Shown here one piece after another: positions 38,908 through 51,605 of a stretch of DNA of 64,000 nucleotides. The stretch spans positions 19,093-83,092 of the IMG/VR virus record IMGVR_UViG_3300013286_000010, one strand, 5' to 3'. The stretch comes from a virus. The position numbers and the translations under genes are program-made. Under the pieces are notes generated by a model. The model made no database searches. It was not told the DNA's origin and was given only the letters and a program-made list of their open reading frames with translations. Numbering within the stretch: the stretch's first letter is position 1; each line of letters opens with the position of its first letter.

Positions 38908-39205
38908 AAATTTAGAACGTTATAAACAGTTATATTCAGAATATATAGAGCTGTCTATAGAACTGCATAACTATCAACAAGCGTTCCTTGCTACTCTAGG
39001 GCAAGTTCCTAGAGAGAAAGTAGGGAGCGCCTGGTATAGGATGGGCAAGTTATGTAAAGAAATGAAAAAACTTGCCCGATTAGTACACAGAGACCATTTA
39101 GCAAATAGAATAGAGCTGAAAGCAATTGCAGAAGCAGAAGCCGCTCATAGAAGAGCAAACCCAAAAAAACCGGGCCCAAAAGGTCCATGGAAACATAAAA
39201 AATGA
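38897..39205 (+). CDS. Hypothetical basic helical protein, possible Hc1 paralog
   Basis: 102-aa ORF overlapping both neighbours, with a basic C-terminal tail. Confidence 0.65.
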   Translation: MLTENLERYKQLYSEYIELSIELHNYQQAFLATLGQVPREKVGSAWYRMGKLCKEMKKLARLVHRDHLANRIELKAIAEAEAAHRRANPKKPGPKGPWKHKK

Positions 39206-39399
39206 ACGATACAAATACACAACTACAACAACAATTTGCAGAATTCCTAGCCGAAGATGCAAAATTTACAGCAGGTAATGCTGCCGCAGGCACACGCTCA
39301 CGCAAGGCTCTAGGAGAGTTAGGCAAGTTAGTCAAAGCTCGCCGTAATGAAATCACTGCCGAGAAGAACGCTCGCAAGGAAGCTAAGGCCGTAAAGTAA
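39202..39399 (+). CDS. Histone H1-like Hc1-family small protein
   Basis: KF..GN.AAGTRSRKAL.EL.KL.K..R.EI motif. Confidence 0.75.
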   Translation: MNDTNTQLQQQFAEFLAEDAKFTAGNAAAGTRSRKALGELGKLVKARRNEITAEKNARKEAKAVK

Positions 39400-39402
39400 T
39401 TA

Positions 39403-39831
39403 ATGATTTGGACTTATCAAGGTCAAGTTGTAAATGAATTACCCGAGGATTGTGTGGGATATGTTTATTGCATAACCAATTTAATCACCGGGCGCCAATA
39501 TATTGGCAAAAAATTAGCAAAATTCTCTAAAACGACCTACAAGACAATCACGTTAAAGAACGGCACAAAAAAGAAAAAGAAAATCAGATCTAAAATAGAT
39601 TCAGATTGGAAAGAATATTGGGGTAGTAGCCCCAATCTTCAGGCAGATATAGACACCCTAGGCAAAGAAAAATTCTCTCGCGAAATATTATATTATTGTA
39701 AAAGTAAAAGTGAATGTACCTATATAGAAGCAAGAACCCAGTTCGAAAGAAAAGTATTAGAATCAGACGATTATTATAATGGGCAGATAAGTTGCAGGAT
39801 ACACCAGTCACATATCAAAGGCAAGATATGA
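39403..39831 (+). CDS. Stand-alone GIY-YIG domain nuclease
   Basis: GYVYCITN..TGRQYIGKK, Y.GSS, FSREIL, conserved E (YIEAR) and YYN. Confidence 0.85.
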   Translation: MIWTYQGQVVNELPEDCVGYVYCITNLITGRQYIGKKLAKFSKTTYKTITLKNGTKKKKKIRSKIDSDWKEYWGSSPNLQADIDTLGKEKFSREILYYCKSKSECTYIEARTQFERKVLESDDYYNGQISCRIHQSHIKGKI

Positions 39832-40109
39832 CAAAACTTGATTATAGCAAAACTAATAAAAGTGACACAGCTTTCTTAAATGATCCGTTTTGGACCAATC
39901 CAAAGGCGGGTTTTGATAAAGCATGGCATGAACAAAGAAATAAACTCAGGCAACATTTAGGCATACACAAAGAACATGATTGGGAAATCATTAACGAACC
40001 CACTGGTCCACATGCAGGCAAAGTAGTCTGTAACACTTGCAAGAGCAAAAAAGGCAAAAGTATGTTCGTATCATGGCTTCCCAAAGGTTATATATCATCT
40101 AACACCTAA
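39828..40109 (+). CDS. Small putative Zn-binding protein (93 aa)
   Basis: ATG 39828 overlaps the GIY-YIG stop (ATGA). Contains H..H...GPHAGKVVCNTC...FVSWL. Confidence 0.65.
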   Translation: MTKLDYSKTNKSDTAFLNDPFWTNPKAGFDKAWHEQRNKLRQHLGIHKEHDWEIINEPTGPHAGKVVCNTCKSKKGKSMFVSWLPKGYISSNT

Positions 40110-40575
40110 GGCTGGCGGGCCGGTTTGTAATACCGCTGTGGAAAAACCGGGGAATAACCGGACACGTGACATATTGAGACACTCCCCTAGGTAGATCCTA
40201 GTATCCTGAAAAATTGGAAGTGAGTATGAGAGCGCGAACCCTAATGCTCGACGTATTGATATAGTATGAATGTTAGCATACGAAAAACCGTGCTATAAAC
40301 ACTTAGACATTAGGAACGAGGTCTAAGACGCATTATGCGAGTCGATGTAGGTTGGGAAAGATCAGAGCCCATTAGCAACACGGTAAAACACCTATTTCCA
40401 ATGTCTCGGCTGTGACAACTCACATGAAGACAAAAAGATGGAACCGTGCAAAACGGTTCCGTCTGACTAAAACAATCTACATGAATTTAAAAACACTTCG
40501 TGTATATCATAATAAGTAAAAACAAACAACTGCTATGAGCGATTAGCGAAAGAGCAAGTGAACGTAGTTCACTTT
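40110..40575 (+). ncRNA. Candidate large structured non-coding RNA (family unrecognised; strand assumed)
   Basis: ORF-free interval with more than 10 local and long-range complementary segments, several containing G.U pairs on the + strand (see findings). Confidence 0.55.
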
Positions 40576-40586
40576 AATAGATTGAC

Positions 40587-40594
40587 TATAAATA
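40587..40594 (+). promoter_or_regulatory. T4-type late promoter TATAAATA
   Basis: Exact consensus upstream of the AAAGGA RBS and ATG 40624. Confidence 0.75.
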
Positions 40595-40623
40595 AAAGAT
40601 CGTAATCCCCAAAGGAATAATAT

Positions 40624-41223
40624 ATGAAGATTGAACAGTTAATTAAAGCAGTAAATGAATCCGCAAGTAATGAGGATTTTAATGCAATGTCTCAAAAAGC
40701 TAATGCTATCAAACAGCAACAGGGTGTTACAAAACCAACAGGTACGGTTCTTCCTTTTCCTAAAACTACCACAGCTACTCCTGGTCCTGCGGGAACTACA
40801 GGTCCAAGTGCTTTAGATAAATTTAAGCAGGGAGCTAGCGCAGTTGGTTCTGCTATTAAAACAGGTGCCCAAGCTGTAGCTAAAAACGCTCCAGCAGTTG
40901 GTCAAGGGGTTAGCAATGTTGCCCAAGGGTTAGGCACAGCAGGTACAGGTATTGTTAAAGGTGCTGGAGATATTGCCAGTCAAGCAGTTGGTGGCGCAAC
41001 ACAAGCAGTCGGTGCCGGTCTAGGTGGTATTGTTCATGGATACAAAGCTGCTCGTGGTGGACAACAATTTGGCGGAGGTGGTACTGCTGGAACTCCTAGT
41101 TCGGCAGGTGCTCCAAGTACACCTAGTTCTGCAGGTGCCGCAGCAGGCGGTAATGACGAGATGGATCAGTTAAGATCTACACTACAGACAATGGATCAAA
41201 GACTACGCAGGGCAGGTATTTAA
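40624..41223 (+). CDS. Gly/Ala-rich late protein, possible head internal protein
   Basis: 199 aa with a late promoter and RBS. Confidence 0.7.
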   Translation: MKIEQLIKAVNESASNEDFNAMSQKANAIKQQQGVTKPTGTVLPFPKTTTATPGPAGTTGPSALDKFKQGASAVGSAIKTGAQAVAKNAPAVGQGVSNVAQGLGTAGTGIVKGAGDIASQAVGGATQAVGAGLGGIVHGYKAARGGQQFGGGGTAGTPSSAGAPSTPSSAGAAAGGNDEMDQLRSTLQTMDQRLRRAGI

Positions 41224-50869: not shown

Positions 50870-50877
50870 TATAAATA
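50870..50877 (+). promoter_or_regulatory. T4-type late promoter TATAAATA
   Basis: Exact consensus right after the terminator. Confidence 0.75.
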
Positions 50878-50948
50878 AACAGTCTAGATTATTATGCTGT
50901 ACCATCAGCGTAGGGCCTAGAACGCCATTAAACTCAAGGAGAAACAAA

Positions 50949-51605
50949 ATGGGACGTCCAATTAAAAAAACATTTTTCGGAAATTTAAACACAGGTGGCG
51001 CAGGAGCTGAAGCTGTTGCATCTGTTACATTATCTACAACATCGTTTGCTGTATCAACATTAACTGTTACAATGACTTTTTCAGCACCGCAGATTGCTGG
51101 TGGAGTAACAGCCGCAGGTACACCTGTAAAAACAGGAAATACTGTTACTAGCGTTACAATTACAGAAGCAGGTTCTGGTTACACCTCTGCACCAACTGTC
51201 GCTTTTACAGGCACTAATATGACAACACAAGGTGCTGGTACTGCTGTGCTAACAAGTGATCGCACCGATGCTATTTCTATTATCTCTTACTTGCCAACTG
51301 CTAGTCAGTCACAAACAGGTGGCGACATTATTAAACAAGAATCTAGTCGTCGTTATCTAGTTCGTAACAGTGACGGTTATGGTCAGTGTACTCTAACTAC
51401 TGGCACATTGACTGCTGGTTTTATGCATATTATTGCTGCTGACTTCTACGGCGGCACATACTATGTAACTAAACTAACTGCTCACAGAGCAGTTTTACAA
51501 GTTAGATCTAACACTAGCTCTTGCATCTACTCTAGTGGCAATGTTGCTCCATGGAACATCACTGCTGCTACAGGCACATACGTAACATTGAATCACACAA
51601 TTTAA
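50949..51605 (+). CDS. Virion structural protein, possibly head decoration
   Basis: AAGGAG RBS, SVTITEAGSGYTSAPTV motif, and its own late promoter and terminator. Confidence 0.75.
   Translation: MGRPIKKTFFGNLNTGGAGAEAVASVTLSTTSFAVSTLTVTMTFSAPQIAGGVTAAGTPVKTGNTVTSVTITEAGSGYTSAPTVAFTGTNMTTQGAGTAVLTSDRTDAISIISYLPTASQSQTGGDIIKQESSRRYLVRNSDGYGQCTLTTGTLTAGFMHIIAADFYGGTYYVTKLTAHRAVLQVRSNTSSCIYSSGNVAPWNITAATGTYVTLNHTI

What the first reader, a model, noticed from the sequence alone, without database searches (positions are those of the whole stretch)
40110..40490. Candidate novel large, pseudoknotted ncRNA in the longest non-coding gap
In an otherwise tightly packed genome, this ~510-bp ORF-free gap is densely self-complementary. 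Long-range nested, potentially coaxial helices: TTGAGACA 40174-81 with TGTCTCGG 40402-09, and ATTGGAAG 40213-20 with TTTCCAAT 40395-402; also TCGAC 40248-52 with GTCGA 40341-45. Hairpins: CTAGG/CCTAG 40187-201, TAGCAT/GTGCTA 40274-95, CTTAGAC/GTCTAAG 40302-27, TGTGA/TCACA 40411-24, and a 12-bp stem 40436-47 with 40453-64. Pseudoknot candidates: GGCGG/CCGCT 40114-37, whose loop CCGGTTT pairs with AAACCGG 40144-50; CCTAAT 40240-45 with loop ATTAGG 40309-14; and ATGTAGGTT 40345-53 with AATCTACAT 40474-82. Imperfect positions are G.U on the + strand, which favours selection on a + strand RNA. I do not recognise tRNA, tmRNA, RNase P or group I/II intron signatures. Large phage RNAs such as GOLLD and ROOL are precedent for such elements.
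Basis: partly seen in the sequence, partly recalled or inferred. Interest (0 to 1): 0.82.

Follow-up and report, generated by a model that had tools for sequence, protein, structure and literature searches.

The report
Large knotted twin-box phage RNA
The gene-free gap holds a real gene for a folded, knotted non-coding RNA of about 475 bases that is in no RNA catalogue; over a hundred uncultured lake phages carry it, it shows the same 7-letter word twice, and its job is unknown.

Summary

- **Family size:** a 20-base word from it hits more than 120 viral contigs. That gave 95 distinct homologues.
- **Covariation:** 93% of cells pair in my 98-pair model, against 34-39% when partners are slid. 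67 pairs show changes on both sides.
- **Strand:** G-U outnumbers A-C 531 to 156.
5 of 12 hold. The long-range pairs and all three proposed pseudoknots fail. Three other pseudoknots are supported.
- **Catalogues:** no Rfam family matches at E<=10, and no cultured phage record matches.
- **Relatives:** sister phages carry the Polynucleobacter-1 motif (RF01718) in the same slot. Both kinds share a 3' tail of about 135-185 nt but have different heads.
- **Twin boxes:** the tail carries ACAUGAA at 40422-28 and again at 40479-85. Fifteen such words occur across relatives, and the two copies are almost always identical.
- **Neighbours:** the RNA also occurs without the GIY-YIG gene and in podophage-like contexts, so it is autonomous.

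Function is unknown. My best guess is a trans-acting scaffold whose two boxes are read by one partner specific to each phage lineage. This scan had already found the family on other genomes.

The parts
39403..39831 (+). Upstream neighbour: 142-aa bare GIY-YIG nuclease gene (context, not part of the RNA)
   Evidence: Pfam PF19835 SegE_GIY-YIG, E 6e-33. Lies within 300 nt upstream of the RNA in 84 of 95 distinct homologues.
39828..40109 (+). Optional 93-aa His/Cys-motif ORF. Its start overlaps the GIY-YIG stop (ATGA) and its last codons overlap the RNA's 5' end.
   Evidence: 35 protein relatives. Invariant H47 H50 H62 C68 C71. Present next to the RNA in 48 of 95. Lake contigs join 39824 directly to 40097 without it.
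40100..40575 (+). The whole RNA: head 40100-40400, tail 40402-40575
   Evidence: nhmmer finds about 170 loci, 95 distinct, that cover it. Conservation profile. Covariation.
40100..40104 (+). Pseudoknot PK1, 5' strand UAACA. Pairs with 40271-75 in the loop of P7.
   Evidence: 100% paired in three states: UAACA/UGUUA, CAACA/UGUUG, CAGCA/UGCUG (helix 1).
40114..40137 (+). P1 hairpin, 5 bp, with a conserved 14-nt loop
   Evidence: 99.8% paired, nearly invariant, one compensatory change (helix 2).
40147..40161 (+). P2 hairpin, 4 bp
   Evidence: All 4 pairs change on both sides (helix 3).
40171..40262 (+). Junction domain. P3 (40171-77/40256-62 plus 40179-80/40253-54) closes P4a (40182-84/40222-24), P4 (40187-201), P5 (40204-06/40216-18) and P6 (40230-33/40246-49).
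   Evidence: helices 4-8: 91-100% paired, and most pairs have compensatory changes.
40264..40281 (+). P7 hairpin. Its loop UGUUA forms PK1.
   Evidence: 100% paired, and 4 of 5 pairs change on both sides (helix 9).
40292..40395 (+). Knotted core. P8 (40292-95/40373-76) encloses P9 (40302-08/40321-27), the variable P10 (40329-39) and P11 (40344-46/40361-63). P12 (40354-56/40368-70) crosses P11, and P13 (40347-51/40391-95) crosses P8 and P11.
   Evidence: helices 10-16: P8 99.5%, P11 99.6%, P12 100%, P13 100% paired, with 2 to 5 pair types per pair in P8 and P11.
40402..40432 (+). P14 hairpin (outer 40402-06/40428-32, inner 40411-15/40420-24). Box 1 is embedded in it.
   Evidence: Seen in the single-sequence folds of nearly all homologues, with register shifts. 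Column counts are only 72-74% paired.
40422..40428 (+). Twin box, copy 1 (ACAUGAA)
   Evidence: Identical to copy 2 in 91 of 95. Nine different words occur in this subfamily.
40436..40464 (+). P15, a 12-bp hairpin between the boxes
   Evidence: 88% paired. G-U/G-C and G-U/A-U alternation fits the + strand only (helix 17).
40479..40485 (+). Twin box, copy 2 (ACAUGAA)
   Evidence: on a tree built without the box columns, the pair changes 18 times, box 1 18 times and box 2 16 times.
40493..40503 (+). P16, a short hairpin with a UUC(G) loop, longer in distant relatives
   Evidence: Inner pairs G-C 45 / A-U 28 (helix 18).
40504..40530 (+). Variable A/U-rich linker
   Evidence: Conservation drops to 10-40% and length varies.
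40532..40573 (+). P17 (40532-36/40551-55, a GA/GAA internal loop, then 40539-40/40546-47) and P18 (40557-63/40567-73). This is the end of the conserved RNA.
   Evidence: P18 is 94% paired with 5 of 5 outer pairs compensatory. All P17 pairs are compensatory, but the alignment is loose (helices 19-22). Shared with Polynucleobacter-1-type relatives.
40587..40594 (+). TATAAATA, the T4-type late promoter of the next gene. It lies outside the RNA.
   Evidence: One of only 3 copies in the window. Conserved in relatives. A Shine-Dalgarno site (40612-16) and ATG (40624) follow.

Best explanation
**Shown.** Window 40100-40575 (+) is a gene for a multi-pseudoknotted non-coding RNA of about 475 nt. It has two parts.
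- The head (40100-40400) is a very conserved fold with three pseudoknots.
- The tail (40402-40575) carries one 7-nt word twice, either side of a 12-bp hairpin, followed by three more hairpins.
- The tail is shared with RNAs whose head is the Polynucleobacter-1 motif.
- The RNA moves between unrelated gene neighbourhoods.

**Inferred.**
- Here it is made by read-through from the GIY-YIG/ORF93 genes. There is no room for a promoter, and the ORF's last codons are the first helix strand.
- It ends at P18, before the next gene's late promoter.
- It then works as a free RNA, not as a control element of its neighbours.
- The head is a binding or catalytic scaffold.
- The two boxes are two copies of one specificity word. 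A single partner that differs between phage lineages reads them, most likely a nucleic acid by base pairing.
For: **Structure.**
- 93.4% of cells pair, against 34-39% with slid partners.
- 67 of 98 pairs change on both sides.
- 1123 cells are compensatory, against 107-220 in the slid controls, and 0 of 500 shuffles reach any measure.

**Strand and coding.**
- G-U 531 against A-C 156.
- Fold z -4.0 on + against -1.66 on -.
- Variation shows no 3-base rhythm.
- Box spacing is 48-65 nt and mostly not a multiple of 3.

**Breadth.**
- More than 120 viral contigs share a 20-mer.
- There are 95 distinct sequences at 60-88% identity.

**Autonomy.**
- 9 distinct loci lack GIY-YIG, ORF93 and gp46. At least one of them (L165) sits behind podophage-type tail genes, and L110 is followed by a glycosyltransferase gene.
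- Many of these have a TAAATA motif 50-100 nt upstream.
- ORF93 is absent in lake contigs that join 39824 to 40097.

**Boxes.**
- Identical in 91 of 95 B-type sequences and 48 of 48 scored A-type sequences.
- 15 different words occur.
- The two copies change together on the tree.

**Shared tail.** The B-type profile hits 64 of 71 A-type RNAs, only over the equivalent of 40410/40461-40595.
Against: - No transcript has been seen, so ends, timing and stability are all inferred.
- No partner for the boxes was found. There is no complement within 3 kb, no clear enrichment in flanks, and none at an informative site in the 83-kb genome.
- Box 1 is partly paired inside P14, so it may not be free to pair in trans.
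- An upstream ORF ends at or inside the RNA's 5' end in most of the contexts I inspected. That leaves room for a role in cis.
- Identity of two direct repeats is also what strand transfer or site-specific recombination would demand.
Confidence: 0.55

Rival explanations
1. Cis-acting element of the transcript it sits on. The structured RNA would be a 3' UTR or leader. It would control the stability, termination or translation of the upstream ORF, whose stop lies at or in the first pseudoknot strand, or of the downstream late gene.
For: - An ORF ends within a few bases of, or inside, 40100-40130 in most contexts inspected: the GIY-YIG stop 6 nt upstream, the ORF93 stop at 40107-09, and mini-ORFs of 9-15 aa in other phages.
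- A ribosome finishing there would open PK1.
- Weinberg et al. 2010 (PMC2864571) listed Polynucleobacter-1 as possibly cis-regulatory.
Against: - The upstream ORFs are unrelated to each other: nuclease, zinc-motif protein, mini-ORFs, tail adaptor.
- The downstream genes differ too.
- The next gene here has its own late promoter after the RNA.
- About 475 nt with three pseudoknots, more conserved than the flanking proteins, is far more than known stabilisers or attenuators need.
Confidence: 0.15
2. RNA partner of the neighbouring bare GIY-YIG nuclease, with or without the zinc-motif ORF. This would be a ribonucleoprotein in which the RNA scaffolds or guides the nuclease.
For: - GIY-YIG is directly upstream in 84 of 95 distinct loci, and also in the Polynucleobacter-1-type relatives.
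- The protein is a nuclease domain with no DNA-binding domain.
- The RNA starts at the end of the ORF, as in TnpB-type systems (recalled from memory, not tested).
Against: - 11 of 95 distinct loci have the RNA without GIY-YIG, 9 of them in unrelated neighbourhoods.
- ORF93 is optional.
- The only lineage-specific part is a 7-nt word, too short for a guide.
- Free-standing Seg-type nucleases are known to settle beside conserved RNA genes.
Confidence: 0.07
3. The twin-box part works at the DNA level or through strand transfer. Two identical 7-bp words around an inverted repeat would be crossover sites, iterons or template-switch points, and they must match each other rather than a third party.
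For: - Identity is kept even at purine positions where a fixed partner with G-U tolerance would allow the copies to differ.
- 7 bp is the usual overlap length of tyrosine recombinase sites (from memory).
- An A/U-rich stretch follows.
Against: - P15 between the boxes shows G-U/G-C alternation that fits only + strand RNA.
- No homologue has just one box (spacing 48-65 nt in 92 scored).
- No contig joins the two boxes (table 5).
- No recombinase gene is linked to it.
Confidence: 0.08

Closest known systems
Polynucleobacter-1 RNA motif (Rfam RF01718; Weinberg et al. 2010, PMC2864571)
   Same: - It occupies the same slot after the GIY-YIG gene in sister phages, at 88-120 bits.
- Those RNAs also fill a gap of about 480-520 nt.
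- They share the tail: twin boxes, the UUCG-type hairpin, P17 and P18.
- They come from the same freshwater habitat.
- Function is unknown for both.
   Different: - The Rfam model covers only the first 141 nt of the A-type head, and does not hit this window at E<=10.
- The B-type profile does not align to A-type heads.
- The head here is larger and has its own three pseudoknots.
GOLLD and ROOL, large structured RNAs linked to phages and prophages (from memory)
   Same: They are large, ornate, phage-borne non-coding RNAs that were found by comparative genomics before any function was known.
   Different: No Rfam match to either. This RNA is smaller, has a different fold, is not next to tRNA genes (no tRNA in the window), and carries the twin boxes.
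T4 segB and the stable RNA/tRNA cluster, where a GIY-YIG free-standing homing nuclease sits beside conserved RNA genes
   Same: A Seg-type GIY-YIG gene lies directly beside a highly conserved RNA gene in a T4-like phage, and the two can occur apart.
   Different: The RNA here is not a tRNA or one of the small T4 species 1/2 RNAs. Homing by this nuclease has not been tested.

Membership tests
Polynucleobacter-1 RNA (RF01718) | Match to the Rfam covariance model at or above its gathering score (37 bits) | tested here: not met
   No match in 39900-40800 even at E<=10. The same search gives 88-120 bits in sister loci.
Polynucleobacter-1 RNA (RF01718) | Same genomic slot and a homologous remainder of the transcript | tested here: met
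   Same synteny: GIY-YIG, a gap of about 515 nt, then the homologous late gene. The tail is homologous at E 1e-12 to 1e-18. Twin boxes are present in 48 of 48 scored A-type RNAs.
Group I intron | Match to the intron model, flanking exons of a split gene, and a P3-P7 type core | tested here: not met
   No Rfam hit at E<=10. The upstream ORF ends with its own stop and the downstream gene has its own promoter, Shine-Dalgarno site and ATG.
tRNA, tmRNA, RNase P RNA, 6S RNA | Detection by ARAGORN or by the Rfam models | tested here: not met
   ARAGORN finds 0 genes in the window. There are no Rfam hits in the gap.
GOLLD / ROOL large RNAs | Match to the Rfam models | tested here: not met
Guide or scaffold RNA of an adjacent nuclease (TnpB/IscB-like logic) | Obligate linkage of RNA and nuclease gene, plus a hypervariable guide segment | tested here: not met
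   11 of 95 distinct loci lack the GIY-YIG gene. The only lineage-specific segment is a 7-nt word present twice.
Structured non-coding RNA gene (generic) | Compensatory base changes above controls, strand asymmetry of G-U, and no coding signal | tested here: met
Structured non-coding RNA gene (generic) | A discrete transcript | not testable with these tools
   No RNA holder is listed, and only contigs could be laid.

The most novel reading that the evidence does not exclude
The twin-box RNAs would be a new class of phage ribonucleic machine. A conserved knotted head acts as a ribozyme or protein-recruiting core. It comes in at least two interchangeable versions, one being the orphan Polynucleobacter-1 motif. 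It is joined to a tail whose two identical 7-nt boxes program it, by base pairing, to grasp two copies of a lineage-specific target in host or rival nucleic acid. Alternatively, the boxes mediate a strand transfer between themselves.
Probability: 0.12. Interest if true: 0.93.

Novelty: new variant of a known kind. Interest (0 to 1): 0.72.

Why it matters
- **New family.** It adds a large, multiply knotted RNA family to the short list of big phage RNAs. It is present in hundreds of uncultured lake phages and absent from Rfam.
- **An orphan motif placed.** It gives the 2010 Polynucleobacter-1 motif a context, as the head of a longer RNA of about 480-520 nt with a shared tail.
- **A testable handle.** The twin boxes change many times yet stay identical to each other. 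That points to a partner or a strand-transfer step, which can be probed by mutating one box against both.
- **Limits on priority.** The 2023 catalogue of viral structured RNA candidates (PMC10690425) may list it without a name; I could not check that. This scan had also already found the family on other genomes.

Tried and rejected
**Database and collection searches**
- Rfam at gathering score and at E<=10: nothing in the gap.
- blastn against 50,697 phage records: no match.
- The supplement of PMC10690425 is not held, so I could not see whether that catalogue lists this RNA.
- 19-mer scan of prokaryote genomes: 4 hits. Only one short MAG contig (L210, with a GIY-YIG gene) holds the RNA. The other three are what chance predicts for a 19-mer in that much DNA.

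**Sequencing runs**
- No RNA holder is listed. Three runs labelled metatranscriptomic are held only as contigs and are probably DNA.
- Laying them gave no starts, ends or strand.

**Looking for the boxes' partner**
- No exact complement within 3 kb.
- No convincing enrichment of a locus's own complement in its flanks, compared with other lineages' words. Only AGATAAT stood out, and A/T-rich composition probably explains that.
- The 14 hits in the 83-kb genome are not at informative sites.
- A possible third box in the Trp-His codons of ORF93 does not co-vary with the boxes.

**Ideas judged by inspection of the sequences, with no tool run**
- Boxes as mimics or binders of a tRNA anticodon loop: several words would need a pyrimidine at tRNA position 37.
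- Boxes as take-off and landing sites of a ribosome hop, as in T4 gene 60: no ORF enters box 1.
- Boxes as -10 promoter hexamers or start codons: several words lack the key letters.

**Other readings rejected**
- P15 as a - strand terminator: its G-U pairs fit the + strand only.
- Coding on the - strand: a stop-free stretch of 60-70 codons recurs at 40101-40293, but it has no start codon and variation has no 3-base rhythm.

Full report
**The place.** The window is part of an 83-kb viral record from a T4-like phage. The genes around the gap are:
- gp47-like and gp46-like genes
- a small ORF
- an Hc1 histone-like gene
- a 142-aa bare GIY-YIG nuclease (PF19835)
- a 93-aa His/Cys-motif ORF whose ATG overlaps the nuclease stop
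- the gap, 40110-40623
- a 199-aa Gly/Ala-rich protein
- baseplate genes on the other strand

The gap has no ORF above 37 aa.

**Is it structured?**
- The + strand folds 4 sd better than dinucleotide shuffles. The - strand does not.
- Rfam finds nothing in the gap at gathering score or at E<=10.
- ARAGORN finds no tRNA or tmRNA.
- No cultured phage record matches.

**Relatives.**
- The downstream protein led to sister loci with the same synteny. In most of them the gap starts with the Polynucleobacter-1 motif, RF01718. Only the last third aligns with the window.
- One distant locus (L010) aligned over the whole gap.
- The 93-aa ORF brought in 73 more loci.
- nhmmer placed the element in about 170 loci, which gave 95 distinct sequences at 60-88% identity to the window.
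- Conservation is very high from 40100 to about 40487. It drops in a linker (40504-30) and rises again over two hairpins up to 40575.

**The fold.** Mutual information and helix scans gave a model of 98 pairs in 22 helices, tested on alignment A5.

| Measure | Model | Slid partners | Shuffles reaching it |
|---|---|---|---|
| Cells that pair | 93.4% | 34-39% | 0 of 500 |
| Pairs changed on both sides | 67 of 98 | 28-40 | 0 of 500 |
| Compensatory cells | 1123 | 107-220 | 0 of 500 |

Three pseudoknots are each 99.5-100% paired, with compensatory changes:
- The 5' end UAACA (40100-04) pairs with the P7 loop (40271-75), in three states.
- P12 crosses P11.
- P13 crosses P8 and P11.

G-U cells outnumber A-C cells 531 to 156, so the RNA is the + strand. 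The P14 hairpin holds in single-sequence folds but shifts register between relatives. Nothing suggests coding: variation has no 3-base rhythm, and the recurrent stop-free stretch on the - strand has no start codon.

**The twin boxes.** I saw these before I read the scan's earlier notes.
- ACAUGAA occurs at 40422-28 and again at 40479-85, on either side of the 12-bp P15 hairpin.
- Across the 95 sequences the word takes nine forms (for example GCAUAAU, ACAGAAA, GGAUAAU). The two copies are identical in 91. The other four differ only in the seventh letter.
- On a tree built without the box columns, box 1 changes at least 18 times, box 2 16 times, and the pair 18 times. So the two copies change together.
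- A pattern from the Polynucleobacter-1 head fetched 98 more contigs, and 12 of 12 tested are RF01718. In 48 of 48 where I could locate box 2, the same 7-mer lies 20-90 nt upstream. These use seven words, one shared with the B-type. That makes 15 words in all.
- No other aligned column tracks the boxes.
- No complement lies within 3 kb, is clearly enriched in flanks, or sits at a telling place in the 83-kb genome.
- An apparent third copy in ORF93 is a coincidence of Trp-His codons.

**Head and tail.** A profile of the window's subfamily hits 64 of 71 Polynucleobacter-1-type RNAs. The hits cover only the equivalent of 40410/40461-40595. So the family has a common tail (P14/box 1, P15, box 2, P16, P17, P18) and at least two heads that no longer align. 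The Rfam model describes the first 141 nt of one head only. The A-type gap is conserved along its whole length too.

**Neighbours.**
- GIY-YIG lies upstream in 84 of 95 distinct loci, and ORF93 in 48. The sample is biased towards ORF93, because that ORF was used to fetch many of the loci.
- Lake contigs join 39824 to 40097, which shows relatives without ORF93.
- Nine distinct loci have none of these genes. In one (L165) the RNA follows podophage-type tail adaptor and fibre genes, and in another (L110) it faces a glycosyltransferase gene.
- In many of these loci, a TAAATA late-type motif and a mini-ORF that ends in the RNA's first bases lie 50-100 nt upstream.
- In GIY-YIG and ORF93 contexts there is no such motif and no room for a promoter. 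Read-through is therefore inferred here.
- After P18 comes TATAAATA (40587-94), then the Shine-Dalgarno site and ATG of the next gene. That gene's late mRNA therefore excludes the RNA.

**What it does.** This is not shown. I favour an autonomous, trans-acting RNA. Its size, knots and conservation exceed what a cis element needs, and its neighbours change. The boxes look like a specificity word read twice. The rivals are:
- a cis role tied to the ORF that ends in PK1
- a ribonucleoprotein with the nuclease, weakened by the loci that lack it
- a DNA-level or strand-transfer role for the boxes

No transcript evidence could be obtained. No RNA holder is listed, and only contigs could be laid.

**Earlier notes of this scan.** Follow-up agents on other genomes described the same family as a "twin-box" RNA of 390-470 nt, a sibling of Polynucleobacter-1 that is independent of the nuclease. 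My tests agree with that. One note says the family also sits on bacterial islands. I did not test this, and my 19-mer scan of prokaryote genomes gave only one short MAG contig with the RNA.

**Literature.** Weinberg et al. 2010 list Polynucleobacter-1 as a possible cis-regulatory motif of Burkholderiales and fresh water. The 2023 catalogue of more than 10,000 viral structured RNA candidates may contain this element unnamed. Its supplement is not held.

Noticed in passing
window 50870-50951: A freshwater-2 RNA motif (RF02980, 52.8 bits) starts inside a TATAAATA late-promoter box, so it is probably the 5' leader of a late gene.
   Followed up: no
window 39780-40060, and the 150-300 nt upstream of the RNA in relatives: GGCA(A) is enriched on the RNA's strand just upstream of the RNA: 1.6-3.2 per 150 nt against 0.56 genome-wide, while the complement TGCC is near zero. 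This holds whether that stretch codes for ORF93, GIY-YIG or nothing. Partly it reflects Gly-Lys, Trp-His and Met-Ala codons. The cause is unexplained.
   Followed up: partly
L110, L122, L096 and L165, just upstream of the RNA: Outside the T4-like context, mini-ORFs of 9-15 aa (starting MAG... or MAQ...) or a 57-aa short form resembling the N-terminal half of ORF93 end in the RNA's first bases. They sit behind a CTAAATA/TATAAATA motif and a GAGG ribosome site.
   Followed up: partly
window 39828-40109: The 93-aa ORF has invariant His and Cys residues (H47 H50 H62 C68 C71), no Pfam family and 35 relatives. It is inserted between the nuclease gene and the RNA in about half of the loci and is missing in close lake relatives.
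   Followed up: partly
window 39202-39399: A 65-aa protein matches the chlamydial histone H1-like Hc1 family (PF07432, E 5e-12), an unusual gene for a T4-like phage.
   Followed up: no
window 40532-40555: P17 has a conserved internal loop, GA opposite GAA, next to a GC stem. It may form tandem sheared G-A pairs. It is conserved in both subfamilies.
   Followed up: no
window 40345, 40352, 40362: Position 40352 co-varies with the 40345-40362 pair (A:U with U in 67 sequences, U:A with A in 19). This may be a base triple inside the knotted core.
   Followed up: no
window 1-64000: No tRNA gene in 64 kb of a T4-like phage (ARAGORN). TATAAATA occurs only 3 times, fewer than chance predicts.
   Followed up: no
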